A DNA stretch of 64,000 nt from NCBI GenBank assembly GCA_951406725.2, contig OX597820.1, forward strand, positions 84,568,001 to 84,632,000. The letters run 5' to 3'. A program made the position numbers and the translations under genes. Under the pieces are notes generated by a model. The model saw only the letters and a program-made list of their open reading frames with translations, was not told the DNA's origin and made no database searches. Below are positions 3,047 to 54,092 of the stretch, piece after piece (positions within the stretch are counted from its first letter, which is position 1; each line of letters opens with the position of its first letter). Origin of the DNA: Octopus vulgaris (lineage: Eukaryota).

Positions 3047-5513
3047 TCAGGGAGTGACGACCCTGTCTGACACGAGTTCCGGGCTCAGCTGGCTCCGGCT
3101 GACAGTACCCGGTATGGGCCCCTATCCAGGGTTACGGAAAGGAGACAACCTTCAAAAAAATCCGGAGTGGAGCCCCGAAGGCGGTTTAGCGTTCGACTCG
3201 ACACTCTTCCGGCAGCTCCTGCAACCAAGCTGGTGCCAAACGTAATGCTCTGCACTCCTTTGGACTTCATCAGCAAGGTCGAGATAGGAAACCTGACGAT
3301 TGGGCTACCCAGGACTTCTTATCTCTAGCCCAGACCTGCGCAAAACTGGAGAGGACACTTCAGTGCTGCTGTAAAAAGCTGCAGAAACAACACGGGAGGT
3401 AACAGTCACGAGTGATAAGTACATTCAGATTGGCGTAAAATATGGGCGCTACGGGTTACCTCTGACGGTGGGAAGGACCTCCGTGTCCTATTGGTTAGCT
3501 ACTGCCCAACTCAAGCTGGGCAGCCCCCAGTTAATAAGGTGCTGACCCGCCACAGGCCATCTGCTTCATTGGGGGCTTGGAGCTAAGAGCATGACTTGAA
3601 AAGCGGCCTGCAACCTCTGCACCAAGCAAATAACTAAAAGACAAAAAACCGCCAGTCCTGCGGTTGGCAAGCTGGAATGTCAGGATCATATTCCCTGGAA
3701 TATCTGATGATCTACTCAGGGTTGAAGACACAAGGAAAACGGCCATCATTGACCGAGAACTAAAGAGGCTCAACATAGACATTGCTGGGCTACAGGAGAC
3801 AAGACTTCCCTCAAACGGCAAACTAAAAGAGCAGGATTTCACCTTCTTTTGGCAGGGAATTGATCCAGAAGAACCTCGTCAACATGGCGTTGGCTTTGCA
3901 GTGAGAAACTCATTACTCTCCTCAATAGAACCACCATCTGGAGGCACTGAGCGTATCCTCTCTCTGCGCCTCTTGACTTCTTCTGGCTCACTACATTTAC
4001 TCAGCATCTATGCTCCCATTCTCTACAGCTCAGAGGAGACCAAGGACCAGTCCTACAAAGATCTCAACTGTGTCATAGAAAATATACCAACAACTGAAAA
4101 TCCCCTTCTAGGAGATTTTAACGCTCGCGTGGGATCTGACCATGATTCGTGACCCATTTGTGTTGGACACTTTGGTATTTGCAGCATGAATGACAATGGT
4201 CAGATACTACTCGAATTCTGCCTTTGACTCAGTAAGCAGAACATACCTCTTCATCCTGCTCCAAAAAAATGTGATGTCCACCAAAGCTGCTGAGGATCAT
4301 CAAGTCTTTCCATAATGACATGCAAGGCATCATACAGCACAATGGTTCAACATCAGCCCCCTTCCAAATAAAAAACGGGGTAAAGCAAGGTTGAGTCCTC
4401 GCTCCTACATTATTTGGCATCTTCTTCTCGCTCTTACTCTCACATGCCTTTCAGACATCAGATGATGGAGTGTTTCTGCACAGTAGAAGTGACGGGAAAC
4501 TGTTCAATCTCTCGCGCCTGCGTGCCAAGACCAAAATCAGAAACGTCCTGATCAAGGAGATGCTATTTGCTGATAATGCCGTTCTGGTATCACACACAGA
4601 CGAAGCCCTCCAAAGGCTCATTAACTGTTTTGAGCAAGCATGTAACGACTTTGGCTTAGCTATCAGCCTTAAGAAGACCAACATCATGGGTCAGGCTACA
4701 TCGGACATCCCAAACATATATATTGGAGACCACAGATCACAAGAGGTGGAGAAGTTTACCTATCTTGGCTCTACCGTCACCTACAACCTATCCCTTGACG
4801 CTGAGCTCAATATACGCATTGGCAAGGCAGCTGCTGCGATGGCCCAACTCTCAAAACGGGCGTGGGACAACAATAAGCCGACCAAGACCACGAAAATAAA
4901 GATCTACCAGGCATGTGTACTTAGCACTCTACTGTATGGAAGTGAGACTTGGACGCTATACACACGCCAAGAGCCTCGCCTAAACATCTTTCACCTGCGC
5001 TGCCTCCGGAATTTCCTCCGCCTCAAATGGCAGAATCATATCCCTAACAAAGATGTCCTCAAGCAAGCAGGAATACCAAGTATGTTTGCACTCCTCACAC
5101 AAAGACGTATGAGATGGCTTGGGCATGTTAGCCGTATGAAAGATGGCAGAATCCCCAAGGACATACTCTACGGAGAGCTTGCTAGGGATACTAGGTCTGT
5201 GGGTAGACCGTTCTTACGTTACAAGGATGTTTGCAAAAGGGACATGAAGGCCTGCAACATCAATATCAGCGGTTGGGAGGCAGTTGCTGGCAACCGTGGA
5301 GATTGGCGACGTACCGTAACAGAGGGAATACAAAGGAGTGACAGGGAGAGAGAGGAACATTCTTCGCTACGTTTGCGGTACCTGCCAGAGGGAGTGTTTG
5401 TCCAGGATAGGACTACACAGCGACAGCAGGAAATGTATCAGGACATGAAATGTAAAATCCGGACTAGACTATTTTATGCGCAACTCCATTGTCTCCCGAG
5501 ACAAAAAGGATGC

Positions 5514-5520
<7 letters not shown>
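3047..5520 (+). mobile_element. RTE-clade (BovB-like) non-LTR retrotransposon with 5' UTR, internally deleted and degenerate
   Basis: GC-rich 5' UTR. APE endonuclease (SWNVR...DIAGLQETRL...GVGFAV...LGDFNARVG, 3664-4220). RT (AFDSVSR, GVKQG*VLAPTLF, LFADN, FTYLGS) and C-terminal LLYGSETW...RWLGHV.RM...RIPK.ILYGEL. 3' hairpin gtctc-cc-gagac followed by (TA)n. Confidence 0.92.
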
Positions 5521-5554
<34 letters not shown>

Positions 5555-19144: not shown

Positions 19145-19996
19145 GTTTTGCGTCAGTGCTACTCTAAGATTAGTAATAACGTGAAACCCAGAGGCAAAAA
19201 GAAATTCACAGCCAGAAATTGCAACTTAATTATCTTGTGAAGACATGTTTTGGGCTAAGCGTAAGATTGGTGCAATTGTGTTTATCTCAGAAAGCCATTT
19301 ATACCGCCAGGATTGTGTCGAGTAGTTTTGGATCAGAGAAACCTTAATCCATCTCTAGAAATACCAATAACTATCTACGGTATAATACAATAAAGAAGAC
19401 AGTTTTGTATCAACCGTTAATAAATAATGTCCTCGCTACACTTCTGAATCGGGTATGAGGTTATGATAAGCAAGCTCAGAAATACTAACTTTGGTATGTA
19501 ATAATCAGTTACTACTGGATAAACATATGTTTAAATAATTTTTTAAGCCCAATCCAATGCGGTCTAAAGAACTAAAAATACATGTAAACTGTGTGCACTC
19601 TACGAGGAATTTCGATATTTCAGTGAATAAAACGATACCAGACTGTAGGAAATCTAAAGAGAAAATATGTTTAGAGTTGGCTTCCAGAGAATAGAATCGG
19701 ATTTCCTTAAAAAGGTGTCATAACATATAACGTATTCTTTTATTGTAATCTGTGTTTATGAATGTAGATTCTCACCAACAAAGAGTCAGGTCCCAGCCTA
19801 CATTCAACGCTTTGTCATACGAATATAGTAATGCATTTGAGCACATATTATTGTATGTATATATGCATTCAAGCACGCATGTTTGCACACGTTTAAGCCT
19901 GTATGATGGCGTGCACGTCTAAGCATCACATGTATATATATATATATATATAATACCAGCGATTATAATTATTTTTATTTTATCGCAATTTGATTT

Positions 19997-20032
<36 letters not shown>

Positions 20033-31406: not shown

Positions 31407-31451
<45 letters not shown>

Positions 31452-31454
<3 letters not shown>

Positions 31455-31993
31455 TCACTAAATTTATCAAGCTTCTGTGTTTCTAGTACATACTTCGGCT
31501 TTAATCTACTTATATATGAATAATATATGGCCGGTGCTAGAAACACCAGCGAAAATAATTAATTTTATTTTATCGCATTTTGAATTTGTTTACATATTTC
31601 CCGATAAATTTTGAGCGTTAGACTATATACCAGAAATCCCTATTTTGTCGGGTTCGTTCTGCGTCTGCGCAGTGATCTGATTAGTTAGAAAGAGCAAATT
31701 ATTAGACGCACATGTGTCTATCGAGTTGCCCTTCATAATAACAGGATTCTTACCGAAGAGCCTACCTGAGTAAATAAATATTAAATTTATATTTTTTTGC
31801 TGAACAAGGCGAAACTGCAGTCTAAGATGAACAGAGTTAGTAAAAGTTTTTATCTTCATTTCACTAAATTTATCAAGCTTCTGTGTTTCTAGTACATACT
31901 TCGGCTTTAATCTACTTATATATGAATAATATATGGCCGGTGCTAGAAACACCAGCGAAAATAATTAATTTTATTTTATCGCATTTTGAATTT

Positions 31994-31998
<5 letters not shown>
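31452..31998 (+). mobile_element. Retrozyme/PLE-terminal-repeat-like element: 406 bp unit plus 141 bp direct repeat, flanked by (TA)n
   Basis: 31452-31592 is identical by eye to 31858-31998 (offset 406). It contains a hammerhead fold at 31748-31827 and no convincing ORF. Confidence 0.75.
31748..31827 (+). ncRNA. Type I hammerhead ribozyme (minimal stem III, extended stem II, one core substitution)
   Basis: tctta-CCGAAGA-gcct...aggc-GAAA-ctgcag-TC-taaga. Stem I tctta/taaga, stem II gcct/aggc, palindromic ACTGCAGT stem III, predicted cleavage after C31822. The core is CCGA rather than CUGA. Confidence 0.75.
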
Positions 31999-32089
<91 letters not shown>

Positions 32090-33913: not shown

Positions 33914-34169
33914 GAGAGTGGGTTTTGAGAGTTTAGAGTACGGTAGGGTAAATAGTTGGTGTATTTCGTTTACCACATTCAGAATGACAACCTGGCAACC
34001 TATGCACCAACAATATAACTAACAATGAAAAATAACCCGCTGATGCAAAACCTTGAGGTGCCTCACTCGTTAGACGCCTTATTAATAGAAATCCCGAGTA
34101 ATAAATAATATAACTAGACGAAGACTGAACAGAGTCCAAATATAAATCATAACATTTCTGTTATGATTT

Positions 34170-36870
34170 TTGATGGAATTCACTTCACTCATGTTGTTGC
34201 ACAATTAACAGGGCTTACCTCTCATGCGGCTGTTTTTCAAGGTTAGCCTGCAGATACACCAATGTTTCTTTTCTTGTAGTCAGAAATAGAGGTCAATAAT
34301 TCTCTTATATTCTTATTCGTCTAAAGTCTACAATAGGCGGCTGGGGAGATATCTGTGTGAAACGAGGATTTTTTTCACCACATGCTGGTAGCTTTCATGC
34401 AACAATTTTGAAACACCAGCGAAACTTCGGTGCCAGTTAATCACTAAAGAATTCTCTCATCTATTGTATTTGGTTTGCTAAAATTATGCGTGAAGGTTTG
34501 ACTATCTTTGTAAATCTTCCTTTGCTATTTTCTTTAATCGTGATTCACTGTAACCGCATTTGACAAAAGCATTCGCATGTTTCCAATGATCACCTATGTC
34601 AGTAGAAATCCCCTCTATCCGCAAAATTTGGGATTTCGGATTTGACCGAATAATATGATGTGGATGATTGGAGCGGCAGTGGAGAAAATGTGGGATTACA
34701 TGGGCTTGCAAAATAACTCTGTCATTATTCTGCCTCCAGAAAACTTAACTTTGTTATTCGAAAATTCAACGTGAGTTTTCGAAAACCTAGATGTAAATTA
34801 TATTTTGGACTTAAAGCCATAGTTGTTTTAGTATAACACTAACAGAAATGTAAGAATTCAATTTAACTATCTTGTGATCCTTCTCAGACAAAAAAGACTT
34901 CACCAATGAACCGTAACCAGAGAACTGGTTCACGACCATGAAGGGATTTGAATATATTCAGTAACTGTCTCGAATATCGTTACGAAGACTTGAGCGAAAT
35001 TAATTGTCATGGGGGTACCCATGGCGCAATCCCTCGTTTGGTGGTAAAATCTTTGTCCAAAATTCAGTGTGTTGCTTTGTAAAACAAAACGCAATAATCT
35101 CCAGGGAAAAGTTGATGGAACACTTTTGTTTGACCTCTTTTCGAAGGCATCTAAGCATGCTTCTATCCCTTCATCGTCGTTAATATTGGGATATAAGGAA
35201 GAAACAACCATGGTTACCAAAATCAGGTTCTAGATACGCCTCGGTGCTAAAAGAAGTTGTTGATTTTCGACAGAAAATCAAAAATATCCCGAGTATAGGA
35301 ACTTGGCTTTTTTGCGACAGGGAGTAGAAAACCATACAGCCATTCCGAAATTTTGCCCGTGCAGCATATCTGCTGCAAATTGGGCACATTGGAGGGAAGT
35401 TTTCGAACATTTTCTACTGGTGTCCTTCCTGACAGTAAATTCCTGGATTCAGCTTTATTAATGAAATTATTTTCCGCCATTTCCAGAATTATTTTTTTTG
35501 TCAAATTCCTCTTCGTAATTGGGATTTCGATGGACAGGTAATTCTTCATAAGCCCAAATATCCCCATTTTTTGTCTATAATTATGACTGCCCCTTCCTTT
35601 ATTCACCATTTTAACAACATTAGAATCGTAATTAACTAGACTTCGGAGTGCGTAATCCTGGGAATGTGTCAGGTTATTCCAGGACTACTTTCCACTTGTT
35701 TTAAAGCTTTCTCTAATACATGTTTGACAAGATTGAAGAAATTCCAGTAGTACTTGTGAACGTCCATCCCGAACTTTACCTGGATACCAATTGAGATACT
35801 TTTCAATCCAATCTTGCCAGGTTCGATCACCATCATTCTTATTTTCAGTAAATATAGGGTTTTCCGTCTCCACGTTATCAGTTTTTTCAAAAAAATTTCT
35901 TCAGCTAGTGACGGCAGACAAATTGAAAGAGACCTTGAGCTAGTTTATTCTTGTCGAATTTCTTAGTGCTTGGGTAGAATCTCAACCCAAACTCCAAGAC
36001 TGAGATATTGTTGGGAAAAAGTTTTAGTTTAGATAAATTTTTGACCGACTTATTCTATAGTGTGATGGATTTTCCCGGGTATGTGGTTTTCAGAGTCTTA
36101 CTCTCATTACATTCCTGACTACGTTTTGGGCTTTTCACGAGATCATCACTTAAACCATCGACCCTATTGAGTGATAAAATTTGTTCTGAATATTCATGTG
36201 AGAAGTTATAATTTTTAATCGTCTTTCTAGAGTCATCAATTCCTGGGTGAGTGCTAGAAGTCGGTGACTTCTGTGGTTTTTGTAAACACTTGAACAACAT
36301 TTACTTTCGGGAAAGGAACGAATTTATTGATTTTCTGGCAAAATCTTAAATGTGCTCCCATTTTTGATTGATCAAATAAAAACACGTCTCTAGTGCGTTT
36401 CAATGACCAGTTCAAATACATAGGCCAAGGCAAGAAGTCCACAGTCAAATGCGCCAACTTCGGAATTAGATATATGAACGTGTTCAACTGTATTTATTAT
36501 GTTTTTTTGTGGTGAGTACAGCATTGTTATTTGTGCTATTAGTTCTTGTGATACTGGAAATTTCATACTGTCAGAATTATAAACATCTCCAAAAAAATGG
36601 TCGACGAAACAAAATAATTGTTTCTGGTATGATGAATGAAGTGTGTGCTGTGTGGTCTGTATGTTAGAAATTCTGTGTGAGAAAAAAAAAATATTCAGTT
36701 GTATTGGAATTTCAGGAAAGATTTCCCGATGCGATTCTCAACCCGGCACCAAGAAGTTTATCAGTTTGAAGTGCATATTATCAGAAAATATTCTAAATCT
36801 TCTCAACTTTGACTTCTCGAAATGCATGAGGAGAAATATATTTGCGGGTTATTAAAACCACACCCTTCAG
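34170..36870 (-). mobile_element. Penelope-like element (Neptune-like linker), degenerate; no GIY-YIG domain seen at its 3' end
   Basis: N-terminal VKNLSKLKL...SVLEFGLRFYPS (~36040-35970), VKMVNKGRAVII (DKG motif), RT SSLYPNI..DEGIEA, FGQRFYHQTRDCAMGTPM, thumb HCRSNHPHHIIRSNPKSQILRI, CGYS, linker PQPPIVDFRR and Cys-containing RGKPC*LC. Many frameshifts. Confidence 0.85.
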
Positions 36871-41933: not shown

Positions 41934-42478
41934 GTGTATATATATATATGGCGATACTCACCATGGCCACAGCTCGTGAGCTGAAACTAGATAAAATGAA
42001 TGAAAAATGAAAAATATATGTATATATATAAATATATATATGTGTGTATGTGTGTGTATTACTTCATCTGTGTCCCTCTCCGTGTTTAGACATGTGTGTT
42101 TGTAACAGTATGTATATGTGTGCGTTTGTGTGTGCACGTTTGTATGTACAGATATTTATATTTGACGACTGAATATTTGAAATCTCCTTTAAATTATAAT
42201 TTGCAGTGTCTCGTCTAAGAGGAAATCGAATGTAAGTGTATTAAACTACCCCATAAGATTTAAAAGGTAATTATTATAGTCGTTGTGAATCTTCCCTGAA
42301 ACACAACAGTGAAAAAGTACACGCGTACGAAGGAACGCGCACACACTCAAGCACATATAGTCATTGAAGGGTAGATAATAAGGTATCGATATATACTATA
42401 TATATGTCTATACAAATATGCACATGTAGATATATACACACACACACATACACATGCACACACAAACACACGCACACG

Positions 42479-42560
<82 letters not shown>

Positions 42561-42566
<6 letters not shown>

Positions 42567-44504
42567 TAATCCCTCAATGGTCGAGGATGATGGTCTTCGC
42601 GCAAATTTACTGGTAATTTCGTAGGTGACTGATAAGACCAAAACTTGCTTGAAAAGATCAGTCGCAGTGCGGACATCTAGTGCCGGAAAGGAGAGTCGCA
42701 GTTGTAGTTGGCGCTCCTTCTGTCGTCGTCTTTTCTCCTCCAGCTCTGCAGATCTTTTCGACTCGAAAGTCGCCATTCCCTCATGGATGGTGGTTTTCCG
42801 GAGTGCTCTGTTTTTTGCCGTTTCCTCCCACTTAGTGAAGTTGATGTCACACTTTTTGAGGTTCGTTTTCAGGGAGTCCTCGTAGCGTTTCTTCTGGCCT
42901 CCGTTTGTACGCTTGCCGTCTTTGAGTTGGGAGTAGAAGATCTGTTTGGGAAGTCGTTCGTCAGTCATTCTAACCACGTGGCCGCTCCATCTTAGTTGGC
43001 CTTTGATGACATAGGCTTCGATGCTGGTCATTTTTGCTTCTCATAGCACGCTGACGTTAGTTCTTCTGTCTTCCCAGCTGATGTTAAGGATCTTCCGAAG
43101 ACAGCGTTGGTGAAATTTCTCGAGCGTTTTCAGGTGGTGACTATTCGGGATCCAGGTTTCGGATGCGTAAAGGAGGATTGGAATAATGACTGCCCTGTAC
43201 ACCATGAGTTTGGTTTCGGTTCGGATGTCCCGATCAGCAAAAACTCTTGTTCGAAGCTTGCCGAAAGCTGTTCCTGCACACTTCAGACGGTGTTGGATTT
43301 CATCGCAGAGGTCTACCTTTGCTGACAGATGACTCGCAAGGTCGCAGAAGTGGTTCACATTTTCCAGTGGAATTCCTTCGAGTTGAATCGATGGCAGGTT
43401 GTCAACACGGGCATTGGGAGAAGGTTGGTAGAGTGAGTCTTCTTGATGTTGATGCTCAGTCCAAGTTTAGTATATGCATGATGAAAAGCATTTAGGATCT
43501 GTTAGAGGTGATCCTCTCTGTAAGCTGCTACACTGTTGTCGTCGACATATTGGAACTCTAGTAAGATTCGCGCCATTGTCTTTGACGTACTTTTGAGGCG
43601 AGTGAGGACGGAAAGCTTGCCGACATTCTGTACGAGATCTCGATGCCAGGTGGAAGGTCATCTCGTATGATGTGCAACACTGTCGCGATAAAGATGGTAA
43701 AGAGAGTTGGCGCTATCACACGCAGCCTTGCTTCACTCCGGAGGTTTCTTTAAATGGCTCAGAACTGCCTCCGTCGGTCTGGACTCTGGCGTGCATATTG
43801 CCGTGGAGGAGTTTGAGGATCCGGATGAACTTATCTGGGCATCCATACTGGGCGAGAATATCCCAGAAGAGCTCTCGCGAGACACGATCAAAGGCTTTGG
43901 ATAGGTCGATAACGGCCAAATAGAGCGGTTGGTGTTGCTCACGACATTTTTCTTGTAGCTGTCGCAGCGTGAAGATCATGTCGGATGTGCTTCCTGATGG
44001 CCTAAAGCCGGTCTGCGTCTCAGGAAGGATCCTCTCTGACAGCGTTTTGAGGCGGTTGTTCAGGATGCGTGCAAGAATCTTCCCAGCAGTTGCTAATAAG
44101 GAAATACCCCGGTAATTTCCACACCACTCAGATCGATCGCCCTTTCGTTTGTAAATGGTAATAATGCTAGCATCCCTGAAGTCGGATGGTACAACTTCAT
44201 TTGTCCAGATTTTGACCAAGAGTTGGTGGAGCTGGTGTTGGACAAAATCACCTCCCAGTTTGTAGATCTCAGCTGGGATTCCGTCAGGACCCACGGCTTT
44301 GTTGTTCTTCATCGCTGTGATAGCAATTTTGATCTCTTCGAGGGATGGAATTCGAGCGAGAGAGTGATCTTTGGCCTCTTTAGGAATCATGCCAAGTATG
44401 CTTTTGTCGATGGTAGCCTTGTGATTGAGGACTGAACAGTAAAGACAGATCGACCATCCTGAAAAGCAACACCGAAATAGGAGACAGATGGAGAGAACAC
44501 TTTG

Positions 44505-44508
<4 letters not shown>
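42561..44508 (-). mobile_element. RTE-clade LINE, 5'-truncated with a 5' inversion, embedded in (TA)n
   Basis: KAVGPDGIPAEIYK, NYRGISLL, QTGFRP, DLSKAFDRVSR, GVKQGCV, QYVDD, LLYASETW, QLRWSGHVVRM..ERLPKQIFY. 3' hairpin cctcg-accat-tgagg. (TA)n on both sides. Confidence 0.93.
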
Positions 44509-44571
<63 letters not shown>

Positions 44572-45057
44572 TCGCTGCTTTCTTCCAAGGAATCTAATGC
44601 ACTTAGTTTTTACTTGGGCTGTCCAGATTGGAGTAATCTCGAGTATAACCAGCCGAAATTGCAAAGATAATCTAGAAGTCAACTGTTTAGAAAACTCCGA
44701 TTGACCCGACCTTGTTTTCTTTGTATGGTCTGCCTGGATGTTTTGCGTTCTTGCCCCACTTTTTGTATACATACATATACATACATACATACATTCATAT
44801 ATATATAGACATACGCAAGTGCAGGATGCAGGGGAGAGTGTAAAACTACTTCTTTAAATCCTAGAAAAAACGTATTGCCTCTGTGTGTGTGTGTGTGTGT
44901 GTGCGTGTGCATGTGTGTATGTGTGTGTGTATAAATTGAATTAGAGTTTATGTTAACCACATAAAGAGATGATCATCCGAGGAAATATTGGTTCAATACC
45001 TAGTATTTTGGGGAATTAATTTCCTTAAAATAATAGGTACACATATAAAAGCATATA

Positions 45058-49833: not shown

Positions 49834-52800
49834 TGTTATTTATGCTCTAATGAGTTTAAAGAAATTTTATTTTATAAGTATGATAATTTACGTAATACAG
49901 GTGAAGAGCGCAAAATAAAATGCAGACATATGTTACTTTACCTATATAATAAGTTTCATGTTAAATAACATTAATAGCTTCCTTTAAAGGTTACTTTAGT
50001 TTAATATTAATTTTAGTTTAGAGTACCATATATATTTTTAGTTATATAGTTTAGGCTTTAATTATAGTTAGTCTTTAATTGGTATTTTCTTTGTTTTAAT
50101 TAATTCATTTTAATGTATATTAATATATAACAGTTTATGGTAAGTTAAAACTTTATTTAGTTATATTAGATTTATATTATTTTATTTACTTATTTATTTA
50201 TTTATGTATTTTATTATGTATATGTTATATGTATATATGGGGATATATTATTATGGATGATTGGGCGTATTTAGAGGTGTATATATTGTGTTTTGTATGT
50301 ATGTGTGAATGTTTACAATCCCCTTGTATTTTATTTGGTATGTTGAATATAGCAGTTTTATATGGGTATTGTTTGTTGCAATATACGTTTATATAGATAT
50401 TTAGGAGATTGTCCGTGAATAGGTAGGTATGGGTGTGTATGCACGTGTGCGTGTGTACAAGTGCAAGTGTAGATGCGTGAGTGTATGAGTGTTATGTAAT
50501 TGAGTGGGATTGTTTATGCACTTGTATATATGCATGTTTTGAATGTGAGTGTGATTGCACCCGTCTGCGTGTACACACTCATATATACATATACTAATAT
50601 TTATTTACTTTTTTGAAAGAGTGTATTTTATAAATAAGTGTATGGGATGATATGTGTGAATGTATATATTTATATATATTTTGTATATATATATATTTAT
50701 GTTTGTATATGTATTTATTTAATCATTTATTGAGAGTCGGATTGAATATATTGGTGTATATATCGAGTTTTGTACGTATGTATATGTATGTGTGAGTGTG
50801 TATATGGTTATGTTTGTGGGTGTGTGTAATTATGTGTGTGTATTTGTGTGTATTGTGGATATGGTAAGGGGGTTTTATCTTTATATTTGTATCTATGGAT
50901 TTCATTTATCATGATTTTTTATTAAGAATTTTTTAGTATTTTAGTCCCCATGCATTATAGCTTGGTATGTTGTTCTTGGTAGTTTTTTTATTGGGTATTG
51001 TTTTGCAGCCATTTATACGTATATTTAGATGTCTAGGAGAGTGTCCGTGAATATGCATATTATGGGTGTGTGTGCATGTGTGCGCGTGTATAAGTGCATG
51101 TGTAGATGTGGGAGTGCATGATTGCTATGTAAAAGTGTGTGCTTGTGTATGCACTTGTATACATGCATGATTGATGTGCGTGAGATTGCATCCATTTTTT
51201 TAGGGATATTTATATTTTATTATTTGTATGGGTGTGGGAGTGAATATTTTGATGTATATATCGAGGTTTGTACGTATGTATATGTATGTGTGAGTGGAGT
51301 GGATATATGTATATGTAGTGGGTGTGTGTTTTACGTGTGTGTATTTGTGTGTGAATGTATAGATAGGGGGATTGCTATATAGGTATGTTATAGTGTTTAG
51401 TAAAGGGAGATTTTATCGTTATATGTATATATGAGTTTTCGTTTATCATGGTAGTTTTATTAAAGAAGTTGTAGTAATTTCTGTCTGTTTAAGTGTTTAA
51501 CATATTATTCCATTTATTCCATTCATAATTTTAAATAACGTTCATTCTCCACGCGCAAAGAATTTTATAATTCCATTCTGTTCCATTCATAATTTTAAAT
51601 GACGTTCGTTCACCGAGCTAAGAATTTTTATAAATATGTTCGGTTTCTATGGTAACGTAATTTTGTTTAAAGTTATAACGGCTAGAGTTTGAATTCACTT
51701 CATAAATTAAAACAGATTAGGAGGTATGTATTTTTTTCTCCTTATGTTAATCTTGTTACTTATGATAATCTGGTTACTTATGGAGTATTTTATATATCGT
51801 ATTATGTGTAGATATGTTGTTTTTCTTTTGAGTGTTTATGTATGTGTGAATGTGTGTGTGTGTGCGTATTTGGTTGTGTAATTTTTTTATCTATATGGGT
51901 GTGGTGTGAATATATTGTTGTATATATCGAGTTTAGTACGTATGTATATGTACATGTGAGTGGGTATATGTATATGTTATGGGTGTGTGTTTTACGTATG
52001 TGTATTTTTGTGTGTGAATGTATTATGGGGATTGATATATATGTATTATTGTGTATGGTAAAGGGTGGTTTATCATTATATGTATATATGGGTTTCATTA
52101 TCATGATTGGTTTATTAATGATTTTGGAGTAAATTCTATATTTTACGTTGATTAAATATTATTCCATTCTTTCCATTCATAATTTTAAAAAAAAACGTTC
52201 GATCACCACGCGCAAAGAATTGTTTATTTTTCTTTTTCTTTTGAGTGTTTATGTATGTGTGAATGTGTGTGTGTGTGTGTGATTGTTTGCGTAATTTATT
52301 TATCTGTATGGGCGTGGGTGTGAATATATTGGTGTATATATCGAGTTCTGTATGTATGTATATGTATGTGTGAGCGGGTATATGTATATTGTTTATGACT
52401 GTGGGTTGTATGTGTGTGTGAGGGAGTAGGAATAAGTAATGTGTTGAAGTATTTGGCTATTTTATTAATTTATTCATTTATCGTTGCCTAGACGTTTTTA
52501 TGTGTATGTATAGATATATATATATATATATTGGTGTGTGAGTTAGTGTATGTATTTAGATATGGTTATATATATTTAGTTATATGTGTATGAGCATGTG
52601 TGTATATATAGTTTATTTTATTTTGTTTTTGTTTTTGTTTTCTGTTTTTTGTTTTTTGTTCTTTTGTTTCTATTTTTTTGTTTTTTTTGTTTTTTGTTTG
52701 TTGTCTTTTGTACATCTTTAAATATGAGAACTTTAATAATAGGTTTCTTTATATTCAATTGTTTCTAGGGTTTATTTTAGATTATATATTGATTATATAT

Positions 52801-53130
52801 AGGTGATATATAGATTATATACAGATTATATATATTTATATTTTTATTGATAATTTTATTATTTTAAACTTATATTTTAATATATTGATATTTTAGATCG
52901 AAAATCCACCTCACGAATGTCATTGAAGACATGAAACGATTGTAGTGGCGGTTTATTTCTTTATATTAAAAGTTTTTATGTATTGATTAAGTCTTTCCTT
53001 ATTTGTTTTGCAAAATAGTGGTTTTGTCTCGAATTAATATTATATATTATTTTACTATAAAATTGGATTTAATCCTAAATCTGATTTTTTCCCTGTAAAT
53101 TTGGATTTATTCCCTAATATTTATTATTAT
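49831..53130 (+). mobile_element. 5'-truncated Penelope-like element: ORF C-terminus plus long repetitive 3' region with a hammerhead
   Basis: 49834-49968 translates CYLCSNEFKEILFYKYDNLRNTGEERKIKCRHMLLYLYNKFHVK*, fitting the PLE C.LC..E..I...N...E....CRH terminus. A TG-rich duplicated region follows, with the hammerhead at 52906. That all of this is one element is inferred. Confidence 0.6.
52906..52948 (+). ncRNA. Minimal type I hammerhead ribozyme (one core substitution)
   Basis: ccac-CTCACGA-atgtc attgaa gacat-GAAA-c gatt g-TA-gtgg: stem I ccac/gtgg, 5 bp stem II, GUA site. Confidence 0.72.
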
Positions 53131-53489
53131 ATATTTATATATATATGGAGTTTAACGTATTTATATATATATATGGAGTTTAAAATTGTGTAAAAAATGT
53201 AATATTCTCTTCAGGGAAGTGAAGAAATGAAACATGTCAATAAGACATTTTAACAGAAAATGATGGATATGTATAGTGATTAAATTGAACCTTATTAATT
53301 TTGTTTTAAAAAAGTTATAGGATATAACGTCAGAGGTTGCCTACTGAAAGAGGGGATATAGAGTAAAGAAAAAATAAATGAGAGGTACATGGCTATATGT
53401 ATATTAAATAAAATCTTATAGACTAGGAAAAAATATATATCTAGTGAATGTGAAATGTAAAAAGAAATCTAATGTGTAAAAAGTAAATT

Positions 53490-54092
53490 AATGTGGTCTA
53501 CTTGTGGTCTCTTAGATCCCAAATTAATTTATTAAGCCCTGTACTGTTACTTTTATTCCTATCCCTAAATGTCAAGTAGTGATTAGAAATTATTCTAGAT
53601 AACTGTGAAGACGTGCTTCCTATATAAAAACATACTTGATTACGAGTATTAATTTTACACTGGTATATAGAATTTTTAAACTTGATTCTGTTGTAATTGA
53701 CTTCAGATAATATAACCTTGCTATTAATATTTCTAGAGGGATTGATGGCATTAGCTAAATTAATGTTAGTATTAGTAAATTCATTAATATTTAACAGGTT
53801 GTTATTATGTGAAGAGATAATTTGTAAGAGATTTTTTTATGTTGGAAAAACCAATCCTAACCGTATGTGAGTTGATAATAGAGTAATATCTAGGAATTAT
53901 TTGGAAGATTCCTAATAGTTTCACGAAACTACATTGGGATATTAGATTTAACTTCCTCCGGTATGTAATAATTAACCAAATGGTTTTACCATTAGTTATG
54001 TTACTTTTGGTGTAATTATTTATGAAAAACTTAAGTTTACCTTTAGAATTTCGAATTTCGAATTATTAGGAATTTTCCAAAGAATTATTCAA
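53490..54092 (-). mobile_element. Penelope-like element fragment with GIY-YIG endonuclease
   Basis: Minus strand: YYSIINSHTVRIGFS...QIISSHNN, then NSIYQCKINTRNQVCFYIGSTSSQLSRIISNHYLTFRDRNKSNSTGLNKLIWDL. Confidence 0.8.

What the first reader, a model, noticed from the sequence alone, without database searches (positions are those of the whole stretch)
31452..31998. Young 1.35-mer of a 406 nt unit carrying a hammerhead with an unusually long stem II
Seen: apparently identical 141 bp terminal direct repeats, no TG...CA ends or tRNA primer site as expected of an LTR/TRIM, (TA)n flanks and a type I hammerhead. Its stem II loop is ~40 nt and self-pairs (agtaaataaatat...atatttttttgct); stem III is the palindrome ACTGCAGT. 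Known: palindromic minimal stem III hammerheads can cleave as dimers, and greater-than-unit permuted copies are expected from reverse transcription around a circular RNA. Inference: a non-autonomous retrozyme family borrowing PLE machinery, recently inserted.
Basis: partly seen in the sequence, partly recalled or inferred. Interest (0 to 1): 0.75.

Follow-up and report, generated by a model that had tools for sequence, protein, structure and literature searches.

The report
Hammerhead retrozyme copied from one circle
This is one of hundreds of copies of a small protein-less repeat carrying a predicted self-cutting RNA, a known kind of genomic parasite; its copies nearly all end at one fixed point next to TA repeats and start at scattered points, which suggests that a Penelope-type enzyme likely copies one small, probably circular RNA round and round into the genome.

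Summary
Observation confirmed: exact 141-bp repeats 406 bp apart and a type I hammerhead. The copy belongs to a dispersed family with 397-406-nt units; one 29-nt motif has 647 exact matches. It is a new member of the animal non-LTR retrozymes. The start points are not freely permuted. 84 of 87 ribozyme-selected insertions share one 3' end, 176 nt past the predicted cut, in (TA)n; 5' ends vary. Repeats within an insertion differ by 1.0%, against 4.0% between insertions. Copying runs through the cut site in over 90% of passes, with a threefold excess of stops just 3' of it. The long stem II and the CCGA core are lineage traits, not private damage. Stems co-vary, and a sister family keeps a different stem III palindrome. 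Best reading: a Penelope-like enzyme primes internally on a circular or nicked monomer. Cleavage, circular RNA and the partner enzyme are not shown. Young intact Penelope-like elements exist here but share no sequence with the unit. The scan reported other retrozyme families in this genome before; none matched this sequence.

The parts
31452..31592 (+). 5'-truncated partial unit (pseudo-LTR-like upstream repeat, last 141 nt of the unit)
   Evidence: exact repeat; 5' ends vary across the family
31593..31998 (+). one full 406-nt unit (subfamily C), non-coding, 33% GC
   Evidence: longest ATG frame in the doubled unit 78 aa
31748..31827 (+). type I hammerhead ribozyme (predicted): stem I 31748-31752/31823-31827, core CCGAAGA 31753-31759 (U4C variant), GAAA 31811-31814
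31760..31810 (+). stem II GCCT/AGGC with a 43-nt insert folding as an extended hairpin (36 nt in most family members)
31814..31822 (+). palindromic stem III ACTGCAGT and predicted cut after C31822
   Evidence: sister family has ACCATGGT
31858..31998 (+). terminal repeat ending at the family's fixed 3' end (inferred priming site, 176 nt downstream of the cut)
   Evidence: 84 of 87 ribozyme-selected insertions end here
31407..31451 (.). (TACA)n(TA)n left flank, target microsatellite
31999..32025 (.). (TA)n right flank, target microsatellite
   Evidence: 199 of 208 insertions have a TA-rich 3' flank
19953..20001 (+). second insertion in the window: 49-nt 3'-terminal fragment of subfamily D between two (TA)n tracts

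Best explanation
This is an insertion of a protein-less retrozyme family whose roughly 400-nt unit carries a predicted hammerhead ribozyme, and it was likely written by a Penelope-like reverse transcriptase that primed at one fixed internal site of a probably circular monomer RNA and copied it more than once round. Steps. Shown: dispersed copies with a fixed 3' end in (TA)n, variable 5' truncation, repeats within one insertion nearly identical, and ribozyme stems kept by compensatory changes. Inferred: tandem copies are transcribed and cut, probably as dimers through the palindromic stem III; the monomer is closed by a ligase or held as a nicked circle by stem I. Inferred: a Penelope-like endonuclease nicks (TA)n, and the target anneals to a UUUA/CAUAU site 176 nt past the cut. 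Inferred: copying usually crosses the cut and stops at scattered, often AT-rich points, giving 0.1 to 4 units. Inferred from a period-10 pattern: the longest arrays grew later at the DNA level. The window copy is a 1.35-unit product with one ribozyme.
For: Fixed 3' end in 84 of 87 insertions selected by the ribozyme alone; TA-rich 3' flank in 199 of 208 and 5' flank in 143 of 207. Within-insertion divergence 0.98% against 4.0% between insertions, lower in 80 of 86. 26 variants are private to one insertion yet present in both of its last units, in 19 insertions; of 136 unit-specific differences only 3 recur, each in a different pair, so copies do not mirror a shared heterogeneous donor array. 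Copying crosses the cut window in 131 of 143 passes; the 12 stops there exceed the mean rate (8.4% against 2.75%, p 6e-4), and 3 of 137 fall exactly at the cut. L067 is a permuted exact monomer with both ends at another TAT site, and L034 has a unit that ends at the cut. Stems co-vary across subfamilies that are 78-95% identical, and the sister family changes 4 of 6 stem III letters but stays palindromic. Two insertions have a directly joined inverted arm, as Penelope-like elements do. Young Penelope-like elements with intact 784-aa frames and (TA)n ends are present.
Against: No RNA evidence of cleavage or circularity was obtained. No Penelope-like element examined shares sequence with the unit, and none of 208 upstream flanks continues into a same-strand Penelope frame. 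The 28-unit array shows a period-10 pattern, so DNA-level duplication occurs and could also homogenise short repeats. The own repeat is the closest match in only 53 of 86 insertions. The excess of stops at the cut also fits linear RNAs that begin there; its window was chosen after seeing subfamily D and ranks only 6th of 345 overlapping windows. None of the 14 fixed-end subfamily C insertions holds two ribozymes, so the source of this subfamily's monomer was not found. In a 2026 preprint only 1 of 9 frog dimers cleaved in vitro.
Confidence: 0.6

Rival explanations
1. It works like a short interspersed element on a linear template: read-through transcripts of tandem donors are primed at the last unit's end plus its (UA)n tail, the ribozyme only trims the 5' end, and repeats are homogenised and multiplied by unequal exchange in DNA.
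For: A fixed 3' end with 5' truncation is also what linear target-primed copying gives. Stops are in excess at the cut. The 28-unit array has higher-order structure. A weak dimer-dependent ribozyme would leave internal sites uncut.
Against: Private variants shared by both units in 19 insertions, and almost no recurring rank-specific differences, require frequent passage through a single monomer. 5' truncation alone would shorten lineages. The permuted monomer L067 is not expected.
Confidence: 0.25
2. The unit is a detached pseudo-LTR of an autonomous Penelope-like element not yet found; partial tandems arise when the enzyme jumps from the 5' end of a linear unit-length RNA back to its 3' end, with no circle.
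For: Frog retrozymes match Penelope pseudo-LTRs (preprint). Non-autonomous Chlamys elements form multicopy head-to-tail insertions. 5' ends are somewhat enriched at the unit boundary (9 of 74 passes).
Against: No parent was found among the Penelope-like loci examined. Internal junctions are exact to the base. The boundary stops coincide with a TA-like microhomology. Jumps between different molecules would give chimeric units, and the outlier insertions inspected were deletions or microsatellite-blurred ends, not chimeras.
Confidence: 0.1
3. It is a dispersed minisatellite spread only at the DNA level, with a non-functional ribozyme-like motif.
For: The Rfam score is below the gathering threshold. 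Circular folding z-scores are modest, -1.0 to -3.7.
Against: Polar ends, (TA)n targeting, 5' truncation and compensatory changes in stems I, II and III.
Confidence: 0.04

Closest known systems
Animal non-LTR retrozymes (Cervera and de la Pena 2020, PMC7229834: passages and sections 14 and 17 read; Li, Clavereau and Pollet 2026, bioRxiv 10.64898/2026.07.22.740005: parts 1-3 of 5 read, supplements closed)
   Same: Non-coding low-GC unit of about 400 nt (mussel 350-390 bp), type I hammerhead in each unit, monomers to multimers, no LTR or primer site; mobilisation by Penelope-like elements and rolling copying of a circle are already proposed there.
   Different: Here the insertion ends are mapped: one fixed 3' end 176 nt past the cut, (TA)n targets, no visible target duplication, same-template repeats. 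Stem II carries a 36-43-nt extension. Expression and circularity, shown for coral, mussel and axolotl, are not shown here. No sequence link to a Penelope pseudo-LTR was found, unlike 24 of 57 frog families that matched known elements.
Penelope-like elements and their minimal hammerheads (Cervera and de la Pena 2014, PMC4209133: parts 1-2 of 4 read; Craig et al. 2021, PMC8557442 and its preprint: passages read)
   Same: 5' truncation, partial tandems forming pseudo-LTRs, occasional inverted 5' arm, (TA)n insertion bias, palindromic short stem III predicted to work as a dimer.
   Different: No reading frame; no 30-40-bp tail at the fixed end; inverted arms are rare (2 clear cases of 208).
Non-autonomous Chlamys elements such as MRC1 (PMC8557442, one passage read)
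   Same: Protein-less, pseudo-LTR-forming, multicopy head-to-tail insertions once mistaken for LTR elements.
   Different: Those generally resemble their autonomous partner at the 3' end; this family has a hammerhead and no identified partner.
Natural U4C hammerhead variant (Perreault et al. 2011, PMC3088659, passages read)
   Same: Same core change; reported there to lower activity in vitro yet allow viroid infectivity.
   Different: Here it occurs in two lineages of a genomic repeat; activity is untested.

Membership tests
Animal non-LTR retrozyme | Short non-coding repeat unit of 150-450 bp, GC under 50% | tested here: met
   397-406 nt, 33-34% GC, longest ATG frame 34-78 aa
Animal non-LTR retrozyme | Type I hammerhead in each unit | tested here: met
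   Rfam E 2.1e-5; 213 motif copies, 192 CTGA and 21 CCGA cores, counted by a pattern that already requires most of the core; covariation
Animal non-LTR retrozyme | Tandem copies with two or more ribozymes, dispersed in the genome | tested here: met
   Dimers to a 28-mer in subfamilies A, B, D; not seen in subfamily C, whose longest insertion is this one
Animal non-LTR retrozyme | No LTR, primer-binding site or TG...CA ends | tested here: met
   read from the sequence; repeat length varies between insertions
Animal non-LTR retrozyme | Self-cleavage of the RNA | not testable with these tools
   only indirect: excess of 5' ends at the predicted cut
Animal non-LTR retrozyme | Expression as linear and circular RNA | tested here: inconclusive
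   no run on record as RNA was listed; contigs cannot show ends or circles
Non-autonomous Penelope-like derivative | Fixed 3' end, 5' truncation, partial tandems, microsatellite target | tested here: met
Non-autonomous Penelope-like derivative | Terminal sequence shared with an autonomous element | tested here: inconclusive
   no match in the Penelope-like loci fetched; only a small part of the genome's Penelope-like diversity was examined
TRIM or plant LTR retrozyme | Fixed-length LTRs with TG...CA, primer site, type III hammerhead, short target duplication | tested here: not met
   variable repeat length, type I hammerhead, no TG...CA

The most novel reading that the evidence does not exclude
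The insertion ends record a nicked-circle mechanism. The self-cut monomer stays closed by stem I; a Penelope-like enzyme recognises it by structure rather than by shared sequence, primes internally 176 nt from the nick, and usually crosses the nick but sometimes falls off there. This would give genomic evidence that dimer-type hammerheads cut in vivo and that unrelated small RNA circles can recruit Penelope enzymes.
Probability: 0.3. Interest if true: 0.7.

Novelty: new member of a known kind. Interest (0 to 1): 0.42.

Why it matters
Copying of animal retrozymes from RNA circles by Penelope-like enzymes is proposed in the papers read but not demonstrated in the parts read. This family supplies a defined test: a 400-nt template, a predicted priming site, a (TA)n target, natural core and stem III variants, and young intact candidate enzymes in the same genome. 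The class itself is known, and the scan has noted similar footprints in other families here, so the gain is a cleaner test case rather than a new kind of element.

Tried and rejected
Expression: no RNA holder was listed. Contigs of runs guessed to be RNA cover the element, but they cover the neighbouring decayed Penelope-like fragment at similar depth, so this is no evidence either way. Presence/absence: contigs of two other runs stop at the flanking microsatellites and none bridges the site. Partner search: an old decayed Penelope-like family, a family sharing the ACTGCAGTC stem III (465 matches), two young intact families and the sister family gave no sequence link to a coding element. A pattern for short-stem-II versions of this ribozyme found 0. 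Penelope-like elements next to two insertions (L342, L343) are separated from them by (TA)n or other sequence and are read as independent insertions. Template switching between subfamilies, suspected from L010, proved to be a deletion. RNA editing fixed into copies: no A>G excess among private shared variants (4 of 26). Twin-armed insertion as the rule: only 2 clear cases of 208; 2 further hits were a neighbouring sister-family element and a chance match. One search extracted the subfamily D unit wrongly and was redone. Rows dropped before counts: 11 short opposite-strand self-hairpin hits of 128; matches under 120 nt that did not reach the 3' end; 3 arrays over 1700 nt; 7 insertions with large indels or blurred ends in the first variant count.

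Full report
Observation. The stretch 31452-31998 consists of a 141-nt repeat, 265 nt of unique sequence and the same 141 nt again without a difference, between (TA)n tracts. Rfam finds a type I hammerhead at 31747-31828 with E 2.1e-5, below the gathering score; nothing in the window reaches a gathering score. The core reads CCGAAGA, stem II encloses 43 nt that fold as a further hairpin, and stem III is the palindrome ACTGCAGT.

Family. The window lies in a 2.8-Gb assembly of 227 contigs. A search with the element gave 57 matches from 40 scored of 591 candidates. Exact patterns gave 127 matches for the ribozyme 5' half, 50 for one terminal junction, 195 for a variant seen at window 19953-20001 and 647 for a degenerate 29-nt terminal hairpin, each with 0 control matches; these count units, not insertions. 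From the loci fetched, a part of the family, I delimited 214 insertions, assigned to four reference units: A 399 nt, B 404, C 406 (this copy), D 397. The references are 78-95% identical and have no long frame. Other notes of this scan call the animal a cephalopod; I did not test that.

Ends. Of 87 insertions selected only by the ribozyme pattern, 84 end within 15 nt of the same point. In the larger set, partly selected by 3' patterns and filtered for length, 208 of 214 do; of the other six, one is cut by the edge of the fetched region and one is an old diverged match. The 3' flank is TA-rich in 199 of 208 and the 5' flank in 143 of 207. Among 149 pattern-selected insertions under 1700 nt the median length is 303 nt; 62 reach one unit and 12 reach two. 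The fixed end lies 176 nt downstream of the predicted cut, at a TTTA/CATAT junction that resembles the target. The 1.35-mer is therefore a 5'-truncated partial tandem of the Penelope type, not a freely permuted copy. Target duplications cannot be read in (TA)n.

One template per insertion. In 86 insertions with overlapping repeats the mean within-insertion divergence is 0.98%, against 4.0% to other insertions of the same subfamily; it is lower in 80 and higher in 3. The between value includes sub-lineage structure, and the own repeat is the closest or tied match in 53 of 86. Twenty-six variants are found in one insertion only but in both of its last units (19 insertions); of 136 unit-specific differences three recur, each in a different pair. 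The outliers inspected in the first set are deletions or microsatellite-blurred ends, not chimeras. This points to passage through a single monomer. Against a pure rolling model, the 28-unit array has a period-10 pattern that indicates later duplication in DNA.

The cut site. Copying passes the 9 nt just 3' of the predicted cut in 131 of 143 passes. The 12 stops there are three times the mean rate (p 6e-4; rank 6 of 345 overlapping windows), and 3 of 137 are exact (p 0.009); the 9 nt on the other side hold 4 of 134. At single-base level the other favoured stops are mostly AT-rich microhomologies. I chose the window after noticing exact stops in subfamily D, so these p-values are optimistic. 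One insertion has a unit ending at the cut (L034), and one is a permuted exact monomer with other ends (L067). I read this as mostly closed or end-held monomers with a minority of cut ends. That is inference.

The ribozyme. Among 213 copies matched by a pattern that requires most of the core, 192 have CTGA and 21 CCGA; position 17 is C in 182 and A in 31. CCGA occurs in subfamily C and in a second lineage that includes multimers, so C31754 has been transposed rather than acquired in place. A natural U4C variant is reported to be slower in vitro yet sufficient in vivo (PMC3088659, passage). On 18 distinct copies, 99.3% of cells in stem I, the stem II extension and stem III pair; stem I has one double change, and one extension pair appears as UG, CG and UA (related sequences, so not a probability). 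The base of stem II reads GCCT/AGGC, GCCA/TGGC, ATTCT/AGAAA or ATCT/AGAC in different lineages. A sister family of about 434 nt, 60-65% identical over 200-300 nt, has 90 exact pattern matches, stem I TCCCA/TGGGA and stem III ACCATGGT. Both palindromes give about -11 kcal/mol as intermolecular duplexes and +2.9 as hairpins, as expected for dimer cleavage described for short stem III hammerheads (PMC4209133).

The enzyme. The genome holds young Penelope-like elements: of 125 scored matches about thirty are 99-100% identical to the query, many in 784-aa open frames, and a second family is 74-75% identical. The query frame has reverse transcriptase and GIY-YIG domains, and copies end in (TA)n, often with inverted arms. 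None of the Penelope-like loci examined resembles the unit, and no upstream flank of 208 runs into a same-strand Penelope frame. Two family insertions carry a directly joined inverted arm. Mobilisation by a Penelope-like enzyme is thus inferred from anatomy and target, and the partner is unknown.

Expression was not resolved: no run on record as RNA was listed, and contigs were uninformative.

Comparison. The family meets the testable features of animal non-LTR retrozymes (PMC7229834; preprint 10.64898/2026.07.22.740005), where circle-templated copying by Penelope-like enzymes is already proposed. Searches for retrozyme with cephalopod and for octopus with Penelope and hammerhead ribozyme returned only Craig et al. 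2021. A search for retrozyme with target-primed, rolling circle and truncated listed 20 of 30 papers, none of which by title or abstract start maps insertion ends. The library lacks most subscription papers. Earlier notes of this scan describe other retrozyme families in this genome with similar readings; none matched this sequence. They are leads, not support.

Verdict. The feature is real and is a new member of a known kind. Confidence in retrozyme membership is about 0.9, and in the circular-monomer mechanism 0.6. Interest 0.42.

Noticed in passing
window 34150-36200 (-): Decayed Penelope-like element (reverse transcriptase with downstream nuclease region in relatives); the family has many broken copies and no intact frame among those scored.
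   Followed up: partly
L369-L380, L343:1377-3497 (+): Two very young Penelope-like families with intact 784-aa frames, many copies 99-100% identical, ending in (TA)n in two registers; my hammerhead pattern found no canonical motif in them.
   Followed up: partly
L372:6760-7001 and L381-L400: Sister retrozyme family, about 434-nt unit, stem III ACCATGGT, two clusters of 3' ends (about 130-145 and 215-250 nt past the cut) and frequent inverted arms.
   Followed up: partly
L166:4979-5618 (+): Unrelated older 1.2-mer repeat with a long-stem-II hammerhead, ending at TA-rich sequence; 68 matches from 40 scored of 3831 candidates, the best ones 81-89% identical.
   Followed up: partly
L186-L215: A repeat family with a short hammerhead sharing stem III ACTGCAGTC and a C-A mismatch at the base of stem II; 465 pattern matches, some in inverted pairs; no frame found within 1.5 kb.
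   Followed up: partly
L342:5480-8090 (-): 5'-truncated, nearly intact Penelope-like element of another family with a minimal hammerhead whose core reads CTGTTGA; retrozyme insertions lie in the (TA)n at both of its ends.
   Followed up: no
L246-L247 (G000 C5, 112.64-112.65 Mb): 28-unit subfamily D array with a period-10 higher-order pattern.
   Followed up: yes
window 3634-5522 (+) and 42408-44609 (-): Fragments of LINE elements (Pfam endonuclease and reverse transcriptase matches; RTE-like by my recall).
   Followed up: no
window 50001-54000: Strong GC skew (0.37-0.52) with low GC and several degenerate short tandem repeats; not examined.
   Followed up: no
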